Below, piece by piece: positions 3,201 to 38,736 of a stretch of 64,000 nucleotides of DNA. The DNA comes from Picochlorum sp. SENEW3. Lineage: Eukaryota. Within the stretch, counting starts at the first letter, position 1. Each line of letters starts with the position of its first letter. The stretch spans positions 248,001 through 312,000 of the forward strand of contig CP120454.1 of the NCBI GenBank assembly GCA_034226945.1. Direction: 5' to 3'. Below the pieces are notes generated by a model that saw only the letters and a program-made list of their open reading frames with translations, was not told the DNA's origin and did not search any database. A program made the position numbers and the translations under genes.

Positions 3201-6200
3201 AAATGATGAAACAGTTCTCGATTATATTCGAGACCCGAAAGGTTTTATTTCCTCTGCATATGTTGCCTTTCTGAAATTAGATGACTCATTCAGATCACAA
3301 CACATCCAGCATAGCACCTCTCGTCAGGAGTCTCAATGCTTGTGTTTGAAAGCCATGTCAATGGTATACTGTCGATATAGCTCCATTATTGGGCCATTTG
3401 AGGAGCTATCTCACATTCTTAGGATTATGGATACAACTGGAAACAGGAAGATGCGATACTATTGTATGGAGCTGATTCATTCATTTATTTGCCCTGACCA
3501 CGTGGGTGACGATGATGAGATTCGAAGAATCGCAAAAGAAAATGCCATGAGATTGTCCCAGCATGAGGGCATTCCTCTCCTTTGTGATGCTGCAGCAACA
3601 ATCCATGAAGTCGTGAGCTCCTCCAGCGCGTCAAAGGACACAAAGTTGATTACCAGTGCATTTCAGGATATTGAGCCCAAGCTTTGGTTTTATGCGGGAT
3701 ATGATCTCCTAGATAAGGTTGCCATTGAGAATAAAGACGATCTGATGAAAACATTCAATATGAGGAAACAAGGACCAGTCACAAAGAAAGAGATCCGTTC
3801 GCTTTTCCGCAATGGGAGTATCGGAAACAGTACATATGTTTCTAGAATTGGAATGAAGTACCCAGCAGTTTTGGAAAGCATAAGGGAACTTTATTGGTGG
3901 TCTGCTGAAGGAGTCGCTCCTTTCTCAGAGAGAGATTTTTCCCTGACTGCTTTGGATGTGTTGACAGGAATATTCCAACTCTGTCCAGCAAAGGATCCGA
4001 TCAGTGGAATTCAATTACTTCCATTACCTATATGCCATCGACAAATGTCTAAGAAAACTTGCGTCTCTAGAATTGCTCAGACGTTGCTCACAAATGACCC
4101 TGAGTTCGTCAATAAATCATGCAATTTGCTCTCAGTCTATATTAGTCAGAATAGTGACGCTATGAAAACCATCTATCAGACAGGAATTTTCTTTTACATA
4201 CTAGCGTACAGTGGTTCTGACCTCATTGAAGCTGGGAAGTTCTTGAGATTATCTCATTTGCAGCAAAAATTCATGCAATCGGATGGGATATCAGCAACCT
4301 GCTCGTTATCTCAGAACTCTATTTTGGGAGATTTGTTGCCAGGTATGTGACTTTGCAGTTGTACTTATTGTAGCTTGACAACACTGTTATTTATTTTTTT
4401 CTACGATTGTACAGAATCTTTGCTTTTCATTCTTGAAAGCTATGGTCATGAAGCGTTCGCTACTGCAATCACAGGAAACTCTGAAAGTCCAGAAATTATT
4501 TGGACACATGAGATGCGCTGCCAGAAACTCATACCTCATCTATGGAATCACATAGGAGACTTTACCAGGCTGCTCAAAGAGTCTTGGTCAATTTCATATG
4601 ATTATTATCCCTGTCCTCCGATTGTGTATGAAGAGATTCAGGAAGAAATATGGTGTCATAGATACTATTTGCGCCACCTTTGCAATACTTCTCAGTATCC
4701 CAATTGGAACATAGTGGATCATGTCGAATTGCTGCAAGCTATATTAGGAGCGTGGAAAGCAGAACTTGCTAAAGTTGGAGTTCAAGGTATGAGCCTGGCT
4801 GAAGCAGCGAAGGTGTTGGAATTGGACCCTTCAAGTAGCATAGATGAATCTGAGATGAAGAAGGCGTACCGGAGACTTGCCAAAAAGTATCACCCAGATC
4901 GCAATCCTGCTGGTCGGGAGCATTTCCAGTTAGTTCATGATGCATATGTCAGGCTTCATTCTGCACGTGAAGAAATATTGGGGCCTAGAGATTGGTGTAT
5001 TCTGTTGTACCTCAAGGCGCAATGTTTGCTATACAGTCGCTATCCTGAGAGCCTTGCAGAATTCAAATATGCAGGATACCCATATCTTATTGCATCGCTT
5101 TCTCTATCGAATGAGATGGATAATGAAGAGTATGCTCAGATTTTGTCCGGCAAATTCATTCCGATTCTGCAGTCTTCCTTGCATCTCTGCTGGTTGACCT
5201 GTGAGGTTTCCGAACTAAATGCAGAGGAGTTGATGAGATCAGACGGCATCAGAGTACTGGAGAGCATATTTTCAAGATGTGTCTCCATCACATCCAGAGA
5301 AGCATCTTTGTCTGACCCTCAAATTTTCATAATGGTGAACATTTTGAAAACATTTGGTGCGATGGCCAAATTTGAGTCAGCCCGCCTAGATCTTGAGGAG
5401 AGGCACCAGTTGATGAAGGATGTCATCAGATGCTGCGAATTTACTCGAGCAACTAATGTCGTGGCATTTTCCTTACAACTGATTGGAGAGATGACAAATT
5501 CTTTGAGAGCTAGAACAACTTTGATTCAAGAAAAGGCCGTGACAACTTTGATACCTTTACTGTTTGGATATGATTGTGCTAGTACCTTGGACAAGAAAGC
5601 ATCTGAGAATCGGAGTGACAACACTTATGAATACTTGGGTAGTACTCCAAATGATGTTGTGAATACTCAGCAAGATCTTCACGAAATATCGTTGCTTGCA
5701 TGTGAAGCGCTTGCAAAGTTGTTCTCCCAGGCGGGGGCACCTGATGATGAGACAGATGTCGTAGACCTAGGAAGGAGAGCTTTCCGAGCATTATTTACTC
5801 CACCAGTAGCACAATATATATCTAGCGGTCACACGTTCTTGGGATATATAAACAATCACGTGCAGAATCATACAGTCATATGGACTGAAGGGATGAAATC
5901 CCAACTGGATGAAACTCTTCAGTCTCTTGAAGAGATGGAGTCTCATGCATGCTTAGTGAATGCTGCTGACACTCAATATGCGAATCTAGTCGGGGAGACT
6001 TATATATCAGGAGTATACATTCGTCTTTTTTGCGAGCGCCCTTCAAAAGAAGGATTTAAGGAAGTAGAATTCTGCAAAGATCTTGTTAAAGTCATGCACA
6101 CATTGGAGCATTTGGGAACCTCAGACTCTTGCACCATCACATCTGCTACAGATAGCTTAGAAAGGCCAGGAAATAAGATTGAACGCAGACAAGACGAGTC

Positions 6201-13238: not shown

Positions 13239-16200
13239 TTAAAATGGGCTCACAAGGTTCTTTCTTGGGCTCTGAGACTCCCCAGAGGCATCCTTAATTT
13301 TGCTGAGAATCACATGGAAATCAGGCCTGTCCTCTGGATTCCACTGGGTGCACAGGGTGACCAACTCACACAGAGTGGACATTGCCCGCTGTGATGCTTG
13401 GTCTAGTCCAGGGGGTATGGAAGGAGCTTTGAAACGCATCATTTCTGGATCAATTATCCATTGAGTTTGAATCTGGAATCCATCCATGTCACCAAATGGT
13501 CTTCTACGTTCCAGTAGCTCCCAGAGGATGACTCCAAATGAGTAGACATCTGCTTTTAGCATGAGTCCTGGATCTTGAGATTCTCCAGATTTCGGTGTTG
13601 TGGGGCTGAGTATTTCAGGTGCGCTATACGCCGCTGTGCCAATCACTCCAGGAGTGAGCGTTCTGTCAAGACCGCCGTTTGTGTAGTTGGTCCCTGATAC
13701 TGGCTGAGAGGGCTGTCTTTCCACGGCATATCTCGCCATACCAAAGTCACCAATCTTCATCACGAAACCATGTCCTATAAATATGTTTGCGGGCTTCAAA
13801 TCTCTATGGAAGATTGGCGGTAACCTTCTGTGGAGATGGTGCATTCCACGGGCAATGGATCTGGCAATAGGTAAAAGTTTTGTGGGATCAATTGTTGATG
13901 ATGCTCCCTTGTGAATAAGCATATCCAAAGTTCCACGGGGACATAATTCCATGATCAAATACGTATGTCCGACATTATGCGCGAGTCCACGTAAGTTTAC
14001 GACGTTATCATGCCAGCCTGCATGAAGGTGAATGTCAATTTCTGATTGACATGAGGCTCTCTTGACTGCAACAGGCGTTTCCTGGTACCATGCTGCATAT
14101 ACTGGACCTTCTACACCTTGTCCCAGCATTTTACCAAATGTGAGTTGAGAAAATTCAATCATCTCAACATTAATTGATGGATTCCTGGTCAAACTGCCAA
14201 TACGGTCAAGTGGTGTTGCCACCTGCGATTGACTACCATCGGTTGTCGTGCTGTCAGCATAGGCCATTCCAGCGTCAAACTTCATTTGCCATGCTTCTGA
14301 ATGAGGCGCATACTGCGATATAGTGGCATCTAAACTGTCACTTTTGTACATGGATTCGATAGCACCACCTCTTCGAAGTGGGCTTGGGGAACGCTTGTAC
14401 TGAGTGACTGGATGCTGTCCATCAGTGGAGGAGGGAGAATTGGTATTTCCAGTGTGAAGCAACCGATGGGGATCAACATTTGAAAAGCTTGATCTTCTTC
14501 CCTCGAACAAAAGATTTTCATGCCGTCTAGATACTCCAATCTTGCTTGGAGAGTCCCCAACATATGTAAAGGATCCGTGTCTGGGTGTCACGGTTCCTGA
14601 GCCAGTGTGACCTCCAGTTTTCGTCAGACCTAGTTCAATGTCATGCTGCAGCGAGTGAGCACCTGAAAGACGATTTGAAATGATTGGAGAGTGCAATGTA
14701 TCATTTCCTGTCTGTGGAGTTCCTCGCCTGCGATGTATGCCTCTGCCAGCTGATGCAATCACTGAGAAATGCTTTGCAGGGGTACCTCCTTCACCTTCAT
14801 CCAGGGACACCCTTGGCTTACATGATGACATGTATTCTGTATCATCACCGTCTCCATCCGAGGATCCTGTGCTATCTGTTTGATCACTAAATGCTTTCCT
14901 TGCTTTTGATGCTGCTGCCTGCAGTGCCTCCTTTGTCAAGAGACCTGCTGCCGACGGTCTCCAGGAGCCACTCGTCAGTCTACTTAACAATTTTGTTGGA
15001 GAATGTGGTTCTTTTTTTAGTGACTGACTCTGTTTCCGGAACATTTCTCGACCCTCGAGGCCATCTGGATTACCAAGAAGCATCACCACAAGAGTCAAAC
15101 CTCTGGCCCACTTTTCATGTGTCTCCATATCACGACACTTGAGCCGTAAATCAGGCTCCAAGGTGAACTTTAAGGTGATGGTTAGATTCTCTGTGCATGC
15201 AAGGACACTCTCCACATGCATGAGCAACACGTATTTTCTCCAGTCCCACCGCAAGGTGGATCCATCATGGGACAGTTGGAAAAACCTCCATTTACCAGCC
15301 GAGCTCACATTGAACGCTCCTAGCACCCGATTAAAGGATTTTGACGATACAATTCCATGATTCGTCTCGTTGGACGGCAGTTTCAACAACCACTCGCCAT
15401 GAATGAGCGGAAGCAGAGCTGATGGCACCTTGGCATGTCTCTGACGACCCCTGGTGGCATCCTCCCTCATTCCACCAGCTGTATCCATGGTTGTATTGTC
15501 AAATTGAGTATTTGCCTTCCATAAGTCTACTTTGTTTCCTTCATCTGGAAGCTTCCCGTACAGATCTCTGTGAAGAATTGCTAAATCGCTTCCTGACAAG
15601 AGCCTTGCATCCCACCATACAAAAGTCCTGCCAAACAGGAAAAAGACTGGAAATGCTAACAGATATGCCTGACCATGGATTTGTACTAGTGTATTACCAT
15701 AGTACACAGAAGAGAACATGTATGCCGCTGCCACAATATAACTGAAAGGATGCGAAAATTCTGCAAAGAGAGCCAGCCTGGGCTTTCCATACATGACTGC
15801 AATGCAACACACTGTCAGCCAGAGTGCTACTGCGACAACGCCGACAGTAGAAGCGACAAGTAAAGATGGAAGATATGAATCTGCTCCTGGATTGATACCA
15901 TTGATGACACCAACAATCAACAAAAGCGTCATCAATTGCACATCCAACTTTGCAAGAGCAACAAACCTATCCCTCCTCAAACTAGCTCGTCTACACCTAT
16001 CGATATTTGGTAATCGCATATCTCCTGCAATTTTCGAGTACATTCTCCAGCCAAAGCCTAAGTATGCCCATCTCGTCAGGCTCAGTGTGGCTACTTGAAG
16101 CAATGCACAGACAATGGCCACTGTGATGGATACTGTGTCCCGTCCAGCTTTCAACGAAGTCTACACACATACGGGTCATGAGCATAATATTAAAGCATCA

Positions 16201-16624
16201 TTATTGTACCATTACCCTCACCATACAATGCTTCTATAGCATAAGAACAAAATGCATCTCGTACCGAGTAGATAATAAGCTGAGCCAAGTTTAAGCCCCC
16301 ACTGGCCATGGATACCAGCAACTGATAGGCATTCTCTAGCCAAAACGCATCCAGCACAATACACAGGAACATCACCGCTGATACTAACAGCAATATCAAG
16401 TCTTGCAAGTTTCTGGAATCTTCCTTGGACAACTCGGTCACAGCAAAGGCTCCTGACACGCAGGCTTGCACAATACAAAGCCCTAAAAACAACTTGCAAG
16501 GCTTTGGCAGTGAGCCCCACAGCTGCCACACCCCGAGCCTTTGTTCTTTCCCTTCCATTTTCTGTATTTCATTAGAACGATTTTCACGATCGTCAACAAT
16601 CATGGTTGTCATTGCCTCATTCAT
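13239..16624 (-). CDS. Multi-pass membrane protein kinase: ~8 TM helices + PH-like domain + TKL (Raf-like) kinase; 2 exons, ~1093 aa
   Basis: Exon 1 is 16624-16265 (MNEAMTT...), phase-0 intron 16161-16264 (GTAC...GTAG), exon 2 is 16160-13239. Kinase motifs GQGVEG, VAVK, HRDLKPAN, DFG, GTAAYSAPE and DVYSFG. PH-like WRFFQLSHDGSTLRW...EKWARGL. Confidence 0.85.
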
Positions 16625-16938
16625 TGTACCAACTGTATGCAACCTGGTAGGTGTCACTCTACTCGCACCCTCCGACACACACAGTGTATGCGGCGCAAGA
16701 AGACCTATCCAATGGTATTGAAATACTATATAATGATATGTACACAAAAGATGGGTCACAAATTCTGGTACGCGGCTATGCCCGTCACTGTCCAACCAAC
16801 CGACCAACCGACCGGCGACTGTTGAGTCATACACAACCGCGATGTCACGAGAAGTAAAGAGAGAATCTTTTTTATGTATAAAATTGCACTGGGTTTTGCA
16901 GCGTAAAAGTCCTGTTGGCCACGTCATGCAATGATGAT

Positions 16939-16986
16939 GGCAGCTGCCTCGAGGCAGCCCTGCCAATGATCTTCAGCGCTGAAGAT
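16939..16986. repeat. Cluster of perfect palindromes upstream of the TM-PH-kinase gene
   Basis: GGCAGCTGCC 16939-16948, GCTGCCTCGAGGCAGC 16943-16958 (16 bp) and ATCTTCAGCGCTGAAGAT 16969-16986 (18 bp). Confidence 0.9.
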
Positions 16987-34534: not shown

Positions 34535-36959
34535 TCAGTAAATCTCATCATCATCTTCCTCAATGTCGTCATCGTCGCCCATGAACGCGGCGCCATGATG
34601 GACATACATATCCATCAAATGTTGCATGGGACTCCGATACATTGGCATGTCATAATCATCTTCGCCCTCGTCGCCCCCGCCGCTCAAACCACCAAATTGT
34701 GATTGCATTGGATCTGCCATGTTGAAGCCCGCACGACCTGTCAGGAGATCGATGAAAGGATCCATGAAACTCTGCGCCAAATCTGGGTCAGTTCCTTGTT
34801 CCACGTCAGCAAAACTTGGCCAACTTTCTGGGTCTACAAATGCACATCCATCCTTTTGCCCACCATATGGTGTCCATACTTTCACTGTTGATTCTATACC
34901 AGATGTAGCGAGAACTGGCAAGATGGGATGAGGTCTGACACAATTTAGGATTTCGGCGTCTGCTCTCAAGAAATTCTCAACCTCTCCAGAATTGGCATTA
35001 TAGATGACGGCATATCCAGTATCCGACGCACTGATGACATATTCGTCGTTCCTGCCGAAAAAGACTGCTTCTTGTATATCAGTGTGCACATGGCTATGAT
35101 GACCATACGACTGAATGAAATTCTCATCTCTATGTCCGAGGCTCATAATTGGTGTGGGCAATCCCTTGGTGTAGGACATGCCCCAAGCCTTCATATAATT
35201 CATTTCAAACATGAGTGGTGACAACATTTGACTCGTCATATCTATCCATTCTTGCGGTATCTCTCCTCGCAGAGTACTGTCAAGGAGCTTGTCCAACATG
35301 GCCTTGCTTGTTTTGTATTCTTTCTGCACGCCTCTGAAAAACTCATTTCGAAAGGCTGTCAAGTCTCCTTCAGCATCCAACGCATCATATTCCGCACATT
35401 TCCCTTTCATCGTTTTCTCCATCACCTTAAGAATCAATAAAGAGGCCAACACAAACTCGCATTTCTTCAACGCATCCATGAGCACGATGTATGGATGCAC
35501 ACGATCCTTTGGGGCCACCCTCACTGCATACTCTGCAGACTGAAGAATAGCAAACAAATGCGAAGGCGTTGGGAGACGACGTTGTAAATATGTGTCACAA
35601 AGTCGACAATATAGAACGTAATCATGTGGATTCTCGCTTAACGCGTGTTTCAGACAACGAAGAGTCCATGCTTGGGCCTTTGGTGGCTTCTGGCATCCAT
35701 GTGGCATTGCTGCTGTATGCCACATGAGCGACTCCTTCCGATCAACCCGGTCTCTATTCCCAAAAAACGAAATCTCCCTCATACTATTATCAAACTCGAA
35801 TGCTTCAGGAAAACCCCCCAACGGCGTCGCCTTGGCAGATTTGCTGTCTGATGTGAGACAGGACCAAGACACTGCTGGGCCTTGAAAGTATGTTGCCAGC
35901 ACTTTGTCTCCCCCTGATCCGAATGTCACGTACGTAGGATATCGATAGTTGGACACACCGATAAAATTACTATACATATCCACCGATGGACTTGTTAGAC
36001 TGAGGATTGGTTCTCCACCACTGTAGCCCGAGTCCGTGAATGGCAGGCTGTCCCAAACATGAGGAGTCAACTTGCGCCTGTCAAAAACACACACATTCGT
36101 GTCCTGAGATGTCACAGCCAACATTTCCGGCCTTCTAGGATTGATTCGAAGCGATGAAATGCCCTTGTATGGATATGACGTCAGGTTTCGAAAACGAAGC
36201 AATACATTTGGACTTTCAACCTCTGACTGCGCTCTGGGATCCATTCTGTAATCATACTGCCGTACTGTTCCGTCTTCTGACGCAGACCAAAACATGTTTG
36301 GATCCGCCTGTGACACCTCGACATCTTTGACTCGGTCAGTATGACAGGAGAAAAATGTGTGCTCCGCAAGCGGATAATCACCCTGCTGACCACCTCCAAC
36401 CACGGAATCATCTTCCATCCTCCCGTCCTCCCCCACATCAACAGGTGGATCATTCTCCTCACGGAAGAAACCATCATACCTCGGACCATGGATAGGAATC
36501 AAGTTACCCCCTCCTTCTAATATTCGATGCAATCCTACCGTGTGGTCCATAGCCCCTGTCACAAGAACAGAAGAGTTGGTGTGAGGCAGAAATTGTACTC
36601 CAAAGATATTGCTCGTATGCAACGTGGGCACCGTATACGGCATACCCTGTGGGTATGGCCAGATGATGAGATTCGCATCATCAGATACAGATGCCAAGTA
36701 TGTCCCATCCTGATTCCAAGCCAAGCGATTCACACACCCCATATGCCCACGTAGTCTTCCAGTCAGACCGAACCGTCTCACGCAAAAATCATCCTCCTTT
36801 GCTATATCCTGCACATGAATAGATGTATGAGATATTTTAGCGAGTAAAGAGAGCAGAAATATCATCAAAACTGATGCATACCCTATCTTGTTCTTTCAAA
36901 CCAATCTCTCTTCTACAGAGGTACCCATATTCGGATCGAATCCTGCCTAATCCAAACAT
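34535..36959 (-). CDS. WD40 (+TPR-like) DCAF8/WDTC1-like CUL4 substrate receptor; 2 exons, ~783 aa
   Basis: Motifs LRGHMGCVNRLAWN, H.SNIFGVQFLP, SASEDGTVRQYDYR and NCVRPHP...LATSGIE. Exon 1 is 36959-36882, with a phase-0 intron at 36809-36881. Confidence 0.88.
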
Positions 36960-37057
36960 CCTTGGGATAGTTCTATGTTACATGATAATATCAACTTTTG
37001 AATAGAGATGCGAGTATTGGAATCAATGGGGGAGGAGAAGATCTGCTGTCGTCAAAG

Positions 37058-37150
37058 TAGATCTAGATCTGCAGATCTGCTTGGTTGGCCAACGTTGGCC
37101 GTTAACGGCCCATGGGCCCAACGTTGGGAGGTACCTCCCCAATATTGGGG
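37058..37150. repeat. Chain of interlocking perfect palindromes
   Basis: AGATCTAGATCT, AGATCTGCAGATCT, GGCCAACGTTGGCC, GGCCGTTAACGGCC, GGCCCATGGGCC, CCCAACGTTGGG, GGGAGGTACCTCCC and CCCCAATATTGGGG, read directly from the sequence. Confidence 0.95.
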
Positions 37151-37272
37151 GGCGATCAAACTCAATAAGAAGGGAAAACTGCTTACAAGAAAAAGAGTAC
37201 TATGTTGTATCAGCATTATTATATATGGTGGGAAAAAAACAGCAGCCATATATAGAAACTGGCATTAATTGC

Positions 37273-38736
37273 TTAATTCTTCTTTCTGCTTCCCTTTTTT
37301 GCTCCCTTCTTTGCACCACTCTTCTTCTTTGGTGAGGAGGACGATGGCGCAAAAGACGCAGGTGCTTCCTCTGGAGAGGATGATGACACAGTAGCTTCTA
37401 CGACAGATGAGGATTCCTTCTTTTTAGCTTCCTCTTCAGCTTTGAGTGCTCTAAACTTGTCCCCTTGCTTGGTGGTGGTGGTGGTGGTGGTGGTGGTGGT
37501 GGTGGTGGTCTCCACGCTGGCAGCAGTATCATCATCTACAGTCTCTGCTGAGACATCAATAATTTTGCTCGATCTGCGAGCATTCATCTCCTTTCCAGTT
37601 GGCCCACTTTTCTCTGGTTTGGGTGGAGCAACATATGTTCCAGATGATGATGCTGTGGCCACATCTGGTTCGTCAGCAAACTTGCGCCTCAAGTACACCT
37701 GCTGTGCTGTCGTCACCAAATTATTTGTAAACCAATACAGCGTCAACCCAGATGGGACATTCAACGAGAAATACCCAATCATCAATGGGATAAACTTTAA
37801 TATATTCTGTGTCTGCTGCTGTGCAGGATCCTGGCTCTGAGGTGGAGAAATAATCTTTTGTGACGCATACTGGGACACCACCAACAATACAGGCAAGAGC
37901 AAGTACGACAGCGTATCGTGCCATCCCAGTGGAGGCACGCCATCCACAGGAACAAGCCATCCCAGTCCCCCATTCAATTTTGTTGGCCCAGCAAGAGAAG
38001 GAATCCAGAAGAACCCATCCGTCAAGAGCCCTTCATCAGCAACATTTCCAAGCGCACGATACAACCCAATGAACACTGGAATAGTCGCAAGAGTAGGCAA
38101 GCACCCAGCCAAAGGATTCACTCCAGTCGTCTGATACAACTTTGCCGTCTCCATTTGAAGCCTCTCAGCATCATTTGCATACTTGGCCTGCAATTCCTTC
38201 ACTCGTGGCTGCAACTGCTGCATCCTCAGGGTACTCTCAACCTGCTTTGCACTCAACGGATACGTTGCCAGCTTCACAAGTAATGTAATCACAATGATGG
38301 AAAATCCGTACGAGTATGGTACCCCAGACTTGTCCAGACCAGCATCAATCAACTTGAGAAATGCCTCAAACGAGTCTGAAAAGATGGACATGAACCCTCC
38401 ACTCTTCTGAGGAGCATCAGCTGCCGCCTCCGCCACAGCAGCTGGATCCGCATCCCCAAAAACCATCAAATGCGTCGTCACCGCCGCGGCAATATCGTAT
38501 TGAATCCCAGCCACATCCTCCAGCCCAGCTTGACACAGAGTACTCTGTCGCTGGCCCCTCGACTGTCTCTGGTACACCTGTGGCCCAACACGAGGAACTC
38601 CTCCTCTCAGAATTAAATCCTTACCATAATGCGTATCACGTATTGCTGTAGAAGAAAGCATGGCACGGCAGCACTGCGGCTTTGTCTGCACCACATGTCC
38701 AATGCGACAGTGCCCAGATACCCTCATCGCAGACAT
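37273..38736 (-). CDS. ALB3: Chloroplast ALBINO3 (YidC/Oxa1 family) thylakoid insertase
   Basis: Motifs VPYSYGFSII, GVNPLAGCLPTLATIPV, FFWIPSLAGP and SLNVPSGLTLYW; transit peptide and basic C-tail. Confidence 0.95.
   Translation of the reverse strand: MSAMRVSGHCRIGHVVQTKPQCCRAMLSSTAIRDTHYGKDLILRGGVPRVGPQVYQRQSRGQRQSTLCQAGLEDVAGIQYDIAAAVTTHLMVFGDADPAAVAEAAADAPQKSGGFMSIFSDSFEAFLKLIDAGLDKSGVPYSYGFSIIVITLLVKLATYPLSAKQVESTLRMQQLQPRVKELQAKYANDAERLQMETAKLYQTTGVNPLAGCLPTLATIPVFIGLYRALGNVADEGLLTDGFFWIPSLAGPTKLNGGLGWLVPVDGVPPLGWHDTLSYLLLPVLLVVSQYASQKIISPPQSQDPAQQQTQNILKFIPLMIGYFSLNVPSGLTLYWFTNNLVTTAQQVYLRRKFADEPDVATASSSGTYVAPPKPEKSGPTGKEMNARRSSKIIDVSAETVDDDTAASVETTTTTTTTTTTTTKQGDKFRALKAEEEAKKKESSSVVEATVSSSSPEEAPASFAPSSSSPKKKSGAKKGAKKGSRKKN
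37471..37509. repeat. (GGT)13 microsatellite encoding poly-Thr in the ALB3 C-tail
   Basis: 13 perfect GGT units (ACC codons on the minus strand). Confidence 0.95.

What the first reader, a model, noticed from the sequence alone, without database searches (positions are those of the whole stretch)
37058..37150. Chain of interlocking perfect palindromes with ~10-bp (one helical turn) spacing
Seen: five perfect 14-bp palindromes lie within 93 bp (37065-78, 37087-100, 37097-110, 37126-39, 37137-50), plus three 12-bp ones (37059-70, 37107-18, 37117-28). The last six have centres at 37093.5, 37103.5, 37112.5, 37122.5, 37132.5 and 37143.5, each sharing its right arm end with the left arm end of the next. 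They mostly have different cores (AACGTT twice, GTTAAC, CCATGG, GGTACC, AATATT), so this is not a tandem repeat. Under a uniform base model a 14-bp palindrome occurs about once per 16 kb (4^-7). The chain lies 100-190 bp upstream of the WD40 gene ATG. Inference: a phased array of dimeric-factor sites, a nucleosome-positioning or cruciform element, or the product of an iterative fold-back/template-switch process. It also looks like a polylinker (BglII, XbaI, PstI, HpaI, NcoI, ApaI, KpnI sites), but similar clusters elsewhere in the window favour a native origin.
Basis: partly seen in the sequence, partly recalled or inferred. Interest (0 to 1): 0.78.

Follow-up and report, generated by a model that had tools for sequence, protein, structure and literature searches.

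The report
Hypervariable chain of interlocking DNA palindromes
A 93-base stretch between two genes of a photosynthetic microbe is made almost entirely of overlapping mirror-symmetric DNA words; it is natural, changes fast between strains, has an old core shared with a related species, and looks like the work of copying errors in which DNA is copied backwards off itself.

Summary
All eight listed palindromes sit at the stated coordinates, and two further 10-bp ones lie among them. Palindromes of 10 bp or more cover 89 of 100 bp here. In 200 dinucleotide shuffles of the window the best 100-bp cover had mean 24.9 and maximum 38.

The chain is native. There is no plasmid match. 20 listed sequencing runs from 9 studies hold the region, and a contig from a different study spans the chain unchanged.

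It lies in a 407-bp spacer between two genes on the minus strand, 123 bp past the stop of an Alb3/YidC-type insertase gene and 193-285 bp before the first ATG of a WD40 gene.

Three results shape the reading:
- The left third is a copy-number-variable AGATCTGC 8-mer repeat. The right two thirds are two diverged copies of a three-palindrome unit of about 29 nt.
- Strains differ mainly inside the chain, by runs of adjacent substitutions and by indels.
- A syntenic relative keeps a 12-mer and an 8-mer palindrome core at the same place, with different but still symmetric arms.

Best reading: an old palindrome pair expanded by duplication and short template switches. A functional role for the core is not excluded.

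The parts
37039..37046 (+). Solo copy of the 8-mer AGATCTGC, 18 nt to the left of the chain
   Evidence: Direct-repeat family D2
37059..37080 (+). Left part of the chain: AGATCT followed by AGATCTGC x2. The palindromes 37059-70, 37065-78 and 37071-80 follow automatically from this tandem unit. Copy number differs between strains.
   Evidence: TRF finds period 8, 2.0 copies, 100% matches. Run X12 has GC put in behind 37064. One X12 contig stops at 37080 and the other starts at 37065 behind a 16-letter loose end made of the same unit.
37084..37093 (.). 10-bp palindrome GTTGGCCAAC, interlocked with the next one
37087..37100 (.). P1, GGCCAACGTTGGCC. Its inner 12-mer GCCAACGTTGGC is conserved in the syntenic relative L001 (4422-4433).
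   Evidence: blastn-short E 0.008
37097..37110 (.). P2, GGCCGTTAACGGCC. Its inner 8-mer CGTTAACG is conserved in L001 inside a 20-bp palindrome (4401-4420), collinear with P1.
37107..37118 (.). P3, GGCCCATGGGCC
37117..37128 (.). P4, CCCAACGTTGGG, a second copy of the P1 core
   Evidence: CAACGTTG occurs only twice in the window, both times here; repeat D1
37126..37139 (.). P5, GGGAGGTACCTCCC. It is the counterpart of P2 in the second unit and differs from it at three mirrored position pairs.
   Evidence: read directly from the sequence
37137..37150 (.). P6, CCCCAATATTGGGG. It is the counterpart of P3 with four extra central letters.
37089..37141 (+). Two copies of a three-palindrome unit (37089-37112 and 37118-37141): 24 nt, 75% identical, 29-nt spacing
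   Evidence: Direct-repeat family D1
37273..38736 (-). Upstream neighbour: Alb3/YidC/Oxa1-type membrane insertase gene. Its stop codon is 123 bp from the chain.
   Evidence: ORF; Pfam 60KD_IMP E 4.6e-54
34535..36865 (-). Downstream neighbour: WD40 gene (WDTC1-like). Its first in-frame ATG is 193 bp from the chain.
   Evidence: ORF; Pfam WD40 E 1.7e-21; Atlas look-alikes named WD and tetratricopeptide repeats protein 1

Best explanation
The chain is a natural, fast-changing piece of non-coding DNA in the spacer between two genes that run in the same direction. It grew around an older pair of palindromes with cores CCAACGTTGG and CGTTAACG, which a related species still carries at the same place.

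Three processes built the present form in this lineage:
(a) slippage of an AGATCTGC 8-mer on the left;
(b) a tandem duplication of a three-palindrome unit of about 29 nt on the right;
(c) repeated short template switches, in which a polymerase copies a few bases from the opposite or nascent strand. Each such event writes the reverse complement of one arm or flank onto the other side.

Template switches create, extend and re-perfect dyad symmetry right through the centre of each palindrome. They let neighbouring palindromes grow until they abut or share a few bases, and they produce the runs of adjacent substitutions and the indels seen between strains.

Shown here: the anatomy, the natural occurrence, the concentration of strain differences in the chain, and the conserved core. 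Inferred: the copying mechanism, the order of events, and whether the core has a function.
For: Anatomy:
- 58 of the 94 letters at 37059-37152 parse as zero-loop reverse-complement copies of 5-7 nt. In the right part (37094-37150) the copies are 6-7 nt and are separated by 2-4 new nt. 5000 shuffles of the segment gave a mean of 0.46 and a maximum of 11 copied letters.
- The linkers between cores alternate between self-complementary or complementary forms (GGCC, GGCC, GGCC, then GGG, CCC, GGG). This is read directly.
- All 10 palindromes in the window chain and all 4 in the L001 spacer are symmetric through the very centre. Copying from a duplex partner predicts this. Selection for a hairpin stem does not, because loop bases would be free to vary.
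- The two copies of the 24-nt block differ only at mirrored positions inside the palindromes.

Strain differences, run X12 against the window:
- 12 listed substitutions in the 92-bp chain.
- 7 in the 193 bp of spacer to its left.
- 2 in the 122 bp of spacer to its right.
- 9 in 666 bp of coding sequence.
- The chain substitutions come as runs of 5, 3 and 4 adjacent letters.
- That contig's alignment (37065-37460) carries 20 gap letters, of which 18 fall at 37060-37145 by depth.
- The ACGT>TGCA run at 37121-24 keeps P4 a perfect 12-bp palindrome.

Run X2 has 0 substitutions over 961 bp but 13 gap letters, which the dip in depth places at about 37060-37145.

Old core:
- L001 is syntenic, with Alb3 followed by WD40.
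- It shares with the window spacer only a 12-mer (E 0.008) and a collinear 8-mer.
- 4 of L001's 5 palindromes of 12 bp or more lie in this spacer of about 430 bp, out of 7161 bp.

Known mechanism:
- Template-switch mutations can create perfect inverted repeats and repair the pairing of existing ones (PMC8794818; passages read).
- PMC5453318 is relevant too (search listing only).
Against: - No ancestral allele or outgroup close enough to polarise a single change was available, so no individual template-switch event is demonstrated.
- The X12 allele could be rebuilt only in part. 12 of its 20 gap letters were not listed, and depth places 10 deleted letters within 37103-37145. The claim that its palindromes are as perfect as those in the window is therefore unproven.
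- A 12-mer and an 8-mer survive between species whose WD40 proteins are only 37% identical. A purely neutral by-product does not predict this, so it points to selection on the core.
- Outside the chain the window shows only a mild excess of inverted repeats, so there is no sign of a strong genome-wide template-switch bias.
- No whole genome was held.
Confidence: 0.5

Rival explanations
1. The chain is a functional cis-element. It would be an array of dyad-symmetric sites for one or more dimeric DNA-binding proteins, such as a promoter module of the WD40 gene or a terminator or insulator after the Alb3 gene. Selection would keep it palindromic, and the sites would sit on one face of the helix.
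For: - The 12-mer GCCAACGTTGGC and the 8-mer CGTTAACG are conserved in order and position, about 170-200 nt past the Alb3 stop, in a species whose WD40 protein is only 37% identical. The rest of the spacer does not align.
- The orthologous spacer of that species is also rich in palindromes.
- Centre-to-centre spacing is 9-11 bp.
- Symmetry through the centre is what symmetric double-strand DNA binders need.
Against: - The six right-hand palindromes have five different cores.
- CAACGTTG occurs nowhere else in the 64 kb and in only 1 of the 35 related loci, so it is not a recurrent promoter motif here.
- The chain is the most variable part of the spacer between strains.
- Run X2 seems to lack 13 letters within P1 and P2 (inferred from depth only).
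- The 10-bp spacing follows from arm length and overlap.
- No RNA, transcription-start or chromatin data could be brought to bear.
Confidence: 0.25
2. The chain is a one-off scar of double-strand-break repair. A Pol theta-type polymerase would have extended a 3' end by alternating a few untemplated bases with short templated copies, and the product was then sealed into the chromosome.
For: - The parse into 2-4 new letters followed by copies of 6-7 letters matches the scale reported for Pol theta.
- PMC4912351 (passages read) describes oscillation between non-templated extension, snap-back extension and templated extension in trans, with switches after 4, 7 or 8 nt and a median insertion of 7 bp.
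Against: - The core palindromes are shared with another species, so they predate any single recent event.
- The right part is a duplicated unit of about 29 nt.
- Alleles keep changing.
- By my own reasoning, snap-back in cis needs a loop of a few unpaired bases, whereas every palindrome here is perfect through its centre.
- No allele lacking the insertion was seen.
- Whether the organism has a POLQ gene was not tested.
Confidence: 0.1
3. The chain is a pile of excision footprints of a cut-and-paste transposon. Hairpin intermediates on the flanking DNA would have left palindromic additions next to duplicated target sites.
For: - AGATCTGC occurs as a perfect 8-bp tandem duplication, has a third copy 18 nt away, and varies in copy number between strains.
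Against: - No contig of the four runs laid carries an insertion at the site.
- The palindromes are even-length, 12-14 bp long and interlocked, not short additions between two copies of one target duplication.
- The right part shows no 8-bp duplication pattern.
- Slippage explains the variation of the 8-mer more simply.
Confidence: 0.05
4. The chain is an artefact: a cloning-vector polylinker or an assembly error.
For: Many six-cutter restriction sites are packed into 93 bp. The enzyme names are recalled from memory; the hexamers are read.
Against: - There is no match in 72,556 plasmid records at E up to 10.
- 20 listed runs from 9 studies hold the region.
- The contig of run X9, from another study, spans 36832-37276, and all 5 of its differences lie at 36861-36890, outside the chain.
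- X2 and X12 carry variant alleles in the same genomic context.
- A syntenic relative has homologous cores.
- UniVec itself was not available.
Confidence: 0.01

Closest known systems
Template-switch mutations, also called quasipalindrome correction (Ripley-type model; four-point model of Loytynoja and Goldman, PMC5453318, search listing only; Monttinen and Loytynoja, PMC8794818, passages read)
   Same: - Short reverse-complement copies create perfect inverted repeats or restore them.
- They produce multi-base 'compensatory' changes in one step.
- They appear as clusters of adjacent differences between close relatives.
   Different: The described cases are mostly single hairpins with a loop. 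Here ten zero-loop palindromes interlock over 93 bp. They combine with a tandem duplication and an 8-mer repeat, and they sit on a core conserved between species. No single event could be polarised here.
Pol theta-mediated end joining with templated insertions (Kent et al. 2016, PMC4912351, passages read)
   Same: A few new bases alternate with copied tracts of 6-7 nt, the same length scale as the reported switching.
   Different: The core is old and the alleles keep changing, so this is not a single repair scar. The perfect centres argue against snap-back in cis. The enzyme was not looked for in this organism.
Bacterial REP/BIME-type stacks of palindromes at gene ends. Comparable bacterial arrays are noted earlier in this scan (e1-5194791, e1-5202463), unchecked here.
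   Same: Rows of perfect palindromes sit just after a gene end, and their arms change while symmetry is kept.
   Different: - This is a eukaryotic nuclear spacer.
- No repeated family is visible in 64 kb.
- No associated transposase is known.
- The units are 12-14 bp and overlap.
Hypervariable intergenic palindrome of Ostreococcus lucimarinus
   Same: It is a mutation-prone perfect inverted repeat between two genes of a compact algal genome, with many natural variants, and was read as a template-switch by-product.
   Different: That case is a single 44-nt hairpin. This one is a chain of ten short interlocking palindromes with a core conserved across species.
Minisatellite or VNTR loci
   Same: Length varies between near-identical strains, and the 8-mer unit varies in copy number.
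   Different: Only the left third is a plain tandem repeat. The rest is organised by dyad symmetry, not by direct repetition.

Membership tests
Template-switch (quasipalindrome) mutation products | The new sequence is the reverse complement of immediately adjacent sequence | tested here: met
   58 of 94 letters parse as zero-loop reverse-complement copies. The maximum in 5000 shuffles of the segment was 11.
Template-switch (quasipalindrome) mutation products | Close relatives differ by clusters of adjacent changes that keep or extend the inverted repeat | tested here: inconclusive
   Run X12 shows substitution runs of 5, 3 and 4 letters plus indels inside the chain. ACGT>TGCA keeps P4 palindromic. 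The allele could not be fully rebuilt because 12 gap letters were not listed.
Template-switch (quasipalindrome) mutation products | The derived state is shown against an ancestral state from an outgroup | not testable with these tools
   The only syntenic relative (L001) is too distant to align outside the two cores.
Pol theta end-joining scar | Short templated tracts alternate with non-templated bases | tested here: met
   New pieces are 2-4 nt and copies 6-7 nt. The scale matches PMC4912351.
Pol theta end-joining scar | A single insertion event, with an allele lacking the insertion | tested here: not met
   The core is shared with another species. None of the 3 DNA runs laid shows an empty site.
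Tandem repeat / minisatellite | Head-to-tail copies of one unit | tested here: inconclusive
   TRF reports only AGATCTGC x2 at 37065-80. A 24-nt pair at 75% identity with 29-nt spacing covers the right part.
Array of transcription-factor sites (cis-regulatory module) | The motif is conserved at the orthologous place in other species | tested here: met
   A 12-mer and a collinear 8-mer are shared with L001. The 12-mer has blastn-short E 0.008. This holds for the core only, not for the other palindromes.
Array of transcription-factor sites (cis-regulatory module) | The motif recurs at other regulated genes, or a cognate binding protein is known | tested here: not met
   CAACGTTG occurs 2 times in 64 kb, both in the chain. 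AACGTT occurs 11 times against 7.84 expected. The whole genome is not held. The literature search 'AACGTT' + 'diatom' found 2 papers, neither about a binding site by title or abstract.
Cloning vector polylinker | Matches vector sequence and is absent from independent natural samples | tested here: not met
   There is no plasmid match. The chain is present in contigs of other studies.
Cut-and-paste transposon excision footprints | A target-site duplication flanks short palindromic additions, and an occupied allele exists | tested here: inconclusive
   The 8-mer duplication is present. No occupied allele is seen in the 4 runs laid, and the right part has no such pattern.
Structured RNA (Rfam family, microRNA-like hairpin) | Matches a covariance model, or has a stem with a free loop | tested here: not met
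   There are 0 Rfam matches at E up to 1 in 36500-37700. All palindromes are symmetric through the centre.
REP/BIME-like dispersed palindromic element | Many copies dispersed in the genome | tested here: inconclusive
   There is no other copy in the 64 kb. The whole genome is not held.

The most novel reading that the evidence does not exclude
The conserved P1-P2 palindrome pair is a real protein-bound or cruciform-forming boundary element between the two tandem genes. Its tendency to extrude or stall replication seeds a self-propagating growth of further perfect palindromes next to it. This would be a eukaryotic counterpart of the bacterial gene-end palindrome stacks, in which function (the core) and a symmetry-copying mutational process (the hypervariable chain) are coupled at one locus.
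Probability: 0.18. Interest if true: 0.75.

Novelty: new variant of a known kind. Interest (0 to 1): 0.5.

Why it matters
Template switching is accepted as a source of single hairpins and of mutation clusters. Natural loci where it appears to have acted again and again, leaving a readable series of steps, are rare.

This locus is short enough to amplify and varies between near-identical strains. It sits in a microbe that occurs in cultures and in several kinds of environmental samples. These properties would make it a convenient natural reporter for measuring how fast dyad symmetry is created, extended and lost in a eukaryotic nucleus.

The conserved two-palindrome core is a separate, testable candidate for a regulatory or boundary element in a very compact genome.

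Tried and rejected
The 64-kb window served as the only background.
- Exact search of metagenome contigs with a 22-nt conserved left flank: 0 hits.
- Searching the rest of the L001 record: the record is not held.
- Other relatives of the Alb3 gene: 35 loci were fetched, but only L001 also carries the WD40 gene (tblastn, 1 of 35). The other 34 gave no orthologous spacer.
- Global alignment of the two spacers: uninformative, because MAFFT did not place the shared cores together. Exact-match and blastn-short comparisons were used instead.
- RNA evidence: the oligo-dT metatranscriptome run X15 gave a contig over the Alb3 3' end that stops at 37243, and none over the chain. With contigs only, this says nothing firm about transcription.
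- Rfam: no match.
- Folding as single-stranded DNA: -22.9 kcal/mol, z -3.4. This is unsurprising for palindromes and does not separate the hypotheses.
- Naming a binding factor from the cores (Myb, bZIP T-box, RFX, CCAAT-type): I compared them from memory only. None fitted convincingly, so none is claimed.
- Literature: the searches 'diatom, palindromic, intergenic, motif', 'AACGTT, diatom' and 'perfect palindromes, intergenic, eukaryot, overrepresented' listed no description of such chains among the rows shown. One search failed on term syntax and was not repeated.
- Earlier notes of this scan: nothing for this genome or for look-alike stretches.
- Lineage: the two Atlas look-ups named the protein families but not the lineage. 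'Diatom-like' is my guess and was not tested.
Full report
**What is there**

- 37059-70 (12 bp)
- 37065-78 (14 bp)
- 37087-100 (14 bp)
- 37097-110 (14 bp)
- 37107-18 (12 bp)
- 37117-28 (12 bp)
- 37126-39 (14 bp)
- 37137-50 (14 bp)

Two further 10-bp palindromes lie at 37071-80 and 37084-93. Neighbours share 2-4 bases.

In the 100-bp window 37051-37150, 89 bases lie inside a palindrome of 10 bp or more. The next best 100-bp window of the 64 kb has 38. In 200 dinucleotide-preserving shuffles of the whole window the best value had mean 24.9 and maximum 38. In 5000 shuffles of the segment itself the cover had mean 1.17 and maximum 29. Chance is excluded.

**Context**

The chain lies in a 407-bp spacer between two genes on the minus strand.
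- An ORF at 37273-38736 matches Pfam 60KD_IMP at E 4.6e-54, the Alb3/YidC/Oxa1 insertase family.
- An ORF at 34535-36865 matches WD40. Its Atlas look-alikes are named WD and tetratricopeptide repeats protein 1.

The window is about 46% G+C and densely packed with long ORFs. The insertase is of the type found in plastid-bearing eukaryotes. I suspect a diatom-like alga, but that is a guess and was not tested.

**Artefact or native?**

- A blastn search of 37020-37170 against 72,556 plasmid records at E up to 10 found nothing. UniVec itself was not available.
- 20 listed public runs from 9 studies hold the 3-kb region or part of it, 14 of them half or more of its sampled words.
- I laid 4 of these runs on 36200-37460.
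- The contig of run X9 (a salt-lake metagenome, another study, low depth 3.6) spans 36832-37276. It has 4 substitutions and 1 gap, all at 36861-36890, so the chain is letter-for-letter the same.
- Runs X2 and X12 carry the same genomic context with variant chains.

The sequence is native. The polylinker idea can be dropped.

**Anatomy**

The left third is a tandem repeat.
- TRF reports AGATCTGC x2 at 37065-80. An AGATCT stands in front of it and a solo copy lies at 37039-46.
- The unit is a 6-bp palindrome plus GC, so its tandem copies generate the first three 'interlocking palindromes' automatically.

The right two thirds (37084-37150) are not seen by TRF, but the repeat finder reports a 24-nt direct repeat: 37089-37112 against 37118-37141, 75% identical, 29-nt spacing. 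Read this way, P1-P2-P3 and P4-P5-P6 are two copies of one three-palindrome unit:
- P4 repeats the CCAACGTTGG core of P1.
- P5 differs from P2 at three mirrored position pairs.
- P6 is P3 with four extra central letters.

A greedy parse treats a stretch as 'copied' if it is the reverse complement of the letters just before it, with no loop. It explains 58 of the 94 letters at 37059-37152. Across the whole stretch the copies are 5-7 nt. In the right part (37094-37150) they are 6-7 nt and are separated by new pieces of 2-4 nt. Shuffles of the segment gave a mean of 0.46 and a maximum of 11 copied letters.

The linkers between the palindromic cores run GGCC, GGCC, GGCC, GGG, CCC, GGG. Each is the complement of the one before, as serial reverse-complement copying predicts.

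The centre spacing of about 10 bp is simply arm length (6-7 nt) plus the next arm minus the overlap (2-4 nt). It is not independent evidence for helical phasing.

**Strain variation**

Against run X12, a named organism about 2% diverged, the listed substitutions distribute as follows:

| Region | Length | Listed substitutions |
|---|---|---|
| WD40 coding sequence | 666 bp | 9 |
| Spacer left of the chain | 193 bp | 7 |
| Chain | 92 bp | 12 |
| Spacer right of the chain | 122 bp | 2 |

- The 12 chain substitutions come as three runs of adjacent letters: 37095-99, 37114-16 and 37121-24.
- The alignment of the X12 contig that covers the chain from 37065 (to 37460) carries 20 gap letters and is 16 letters shorter than the window. 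By depth, 18 of them are deleted letters at 37060-37145.
- The ACGT>TGCA run keeps P4 a perfect 12-bp palindrome with a new centre.
- X12 also has GC put in behind 37064. One of its contigs stops at 37080 and the other starts at 37065 behind a 16-letter loose end made of the 8-mer unit. I read this as at least four AGATCTGC copies, too long for the assembler's word length. That is an inference.
- Run X2 has no substitution over 961 bp but 13 gap letters. By the depth dip, 12 fall in 37060-37102 and 1 in 37103-37145. A single 13-nt deletion between the two AACG words of P1 and P2 would fit, but the event itself was not listed.

Applying the listed X12 edits to the window in a script gave a sequence still full of palindromes, two of them 18 bp long. 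However, 12 of X12's 20 gap letters were not listed, and depth puts 10 deleted letters within 37103-37145. That rebuild is incomplete, so I use it only as a hint.

Between strains, then, the listed substitutions and the gap letters are several times denser in the chain than in the spacer on either side, and the changes are complex.

**A related species**

An exact search with a conserved 22-nt flank found nothing. A protein-guided search with the Alb3 ORF returned 35 loci. Only L001 also encodes the WD40 gene downstream (tblastn, 1 of 35). L001 comes from a 25-kb metagenome contig with 45% G+C.
- Its Alb3 protein is 74% identical to the window's.
- Its WD40 protein is 37% identical.
- Nucleotide alignment is confined to coding sequence.

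Within the two spacers (407 and about 430 bp), the same-strand exact matches of 8 letters or more are:
- GCCAACGTTGGC (12 letters, blastn-short E 0.008);
- the 10 letters of that core matching the second copy in P4;
- CGTTAACG (8 letters);
- one non-collinear 10-mer.

The 12-mer and the 8-mer lie in the same order, 8 and 15 nt apart start to start, and 170-200 nt past the Alb3 stop in both species.

In 1000 mononucleotide shuffles of the L001 spacer, 42 gave any match of 11 letters or more. A collinear 8-mer within a few tens of bases makes chance much less likely. My own rough estimate is of the order of 1e-4, even allowing for both spacers being rich in palindromes.

In L001 the two cores sit in palindromes with different arms: a 20-bp one at 4401-4420 and a 12-bp one at 4422-4433. 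Two further palindromes of 16 and 20 bp abut each other directly after the stop codon, at 4225-4260. Of L001's 5 palindromes of 12 bp or more in 7161 bp, 4 are in this spacer.

The P1-P2 pair is therefore older than the split of the two species. The arms around the cores differ between the species and are exactly symmetric in each.

**What this means**

*RNA structure.* All 10 palindromes of the window chain and all 4 of the L001 spacer are symmetric through the centre. A hairpin stem under selection would leave 3-4 loop bases free. Under my reasoning, the chance that every central tetranucleotide is self-complementary is negligible. This argues against an RNA-structure explanation. There is also no Rfam match. 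It argues equally against snap-back synthesis in cis. What is made or kept here is duplex-level dyad symmetry, as produced when a polymerase briefly copies the complementary or nascent strand (template-switch mutation), or as required by symmetric double-strand binders.

*A single repair scar.* The old core, the duplicated 29-nt unit and the ongoing strain differences argue against a single repair scar. The step sizes nevertheless match the switching reported for Pol theta (PMC4912351, passages read).

*A neutral by-product.* The conserved core argues against a purely neutral by-product.

*A selected array.* Three findings argue against selection on the chain as a whole: it is hypervariable, its cores differ from one another, and the motif is absent from the rest of the 64 kb. 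CAACGTTG occurs 2 times, both in the chain. AACGTT occurs 11 times against 7.84 expected.

I therefore commit to a composite reading at confidence 0.5:
- an old palindrome pair, possibly functional;
- an 8-mer slippage array on one side;
- on the other side, a duplicated unit that short template switches have extended and kept perfectly symmetric, so that neighbouring palindromes grew until they abut or overlap.

The mechanism is inferred. Template switching is documented to create perfect inverted repeats and to repair their pairing (PMC8794818, passages read; PMC5453318, search listing only).

**Background in the window**

- Palindromes with arms of 7 or more number 19, against about 4 in 30 shuffles. 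Five of them are in the chain and several others are AT runs.
- Palindromes of 12 bp or more look enriched in the roughly 12% of the window outside long ORFs, but not inside ORFs (my comparison with the shuffle rates).
- Counted by spacer length 0-12 and leaving the chain out, inverted repeats with arms of 6 or more are only mildly above shuffles at all spacer lengths.
- Three two-member mini-clusters exist, at 16943-86, 19643-64 and 56283-308.

The chain is an outlier.

**Comparison with what is known, and novelty**

The process I propose is a known kind: template-switch or quasipalindrome mutation, plus slippage and duplication. The unusual features are as follows:
- ten zero-loop palindromes interlock over 93 bp in a eukaryotic nuclear spacer;
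- the structure varies between near-identical strains;
- it is built on a core conserved between species.

My literature searches listed no description of such chains among the rows shown. This is not proof of absence. Supplements were not consulted, and most subscription journals are not in the library.

Earlier notes of this scan describe a hypervariable single palindrome between genes of another compact alga (e1-563604), and overlapping palindromes read as excision scars (e1-7223056). Both are unchecked leads from other genomes. I rate this finding a new variant of a known kind, of moderate interest.

**Limits**

- No whole genome was held.
- Only one syntenic relative was found.
- Strain alleles were seen only as difference tables of assembled contigs, with some indels not listed.
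- There are no usable RNA, transcription-start or chromatin data.
- The lineage was not established.

Noticed in passing
L001:4225-4260: In the related species, two perfect palindromes of 16 and 20 bp abut each other with no gap, and the first starts at the base right after the Alb3 stop codon. The window has no counterpart at that position.
   Followed up: partly
window:56283-56308: A mini-chain lies in a non-ORF stretch: a 14-bp and an 18-bp perfect palindrome overlap by the shared word GCATGC, which occurs three times within 26 bp.
   Followed up: no
window:16943-16986: Two perfect palindromes of 16 and 18 bp lie 10 bp apart at the end of a long ORF (16193-16972).
   Followed up: no
window:19643-19664: Two interlocking palindromes (14 and 12 bp, sharing 4 bases) lie inside a long ORF. 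They are built from GAAGATG/CATCTTC-type words, perhaps acidic-residue codon repeats.
   Followed up: no
window:36825-36866: Run X12 differs from the window by four small deletions totalling 9 letters at 36825-36838 and by several substitutions just inside the annotated start of the WD40 ORF. The Atlas does not hold this exact protein. The true start codon may lie further in, which would lengthen the spacer.
   Followed up: no
window:37470-37505: A (GGT)n run on the plus strand encodes a run of 12 threonines in the C-terminal tail of the Alb3-like protein.
   Followed up: no
window:38793-38804: The 12-bp palindrome TGGCCATGGCCA lies 57 bp upstream of the Alb3 ATG. It resembles P3 of the chain (GGCCCATGGGCC).
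   Followed up: no
window:36894-36903 and L001:4397-4406: The 10-mer TGGTTTGAAA is shared by the two spacers but at non-collinear positions. In L001 it leads into the 20-bp palindrome. In the window it lies near the WD40 start. The blastn-short E value of 0.13 is compatible with chance.
   Followed up: partly
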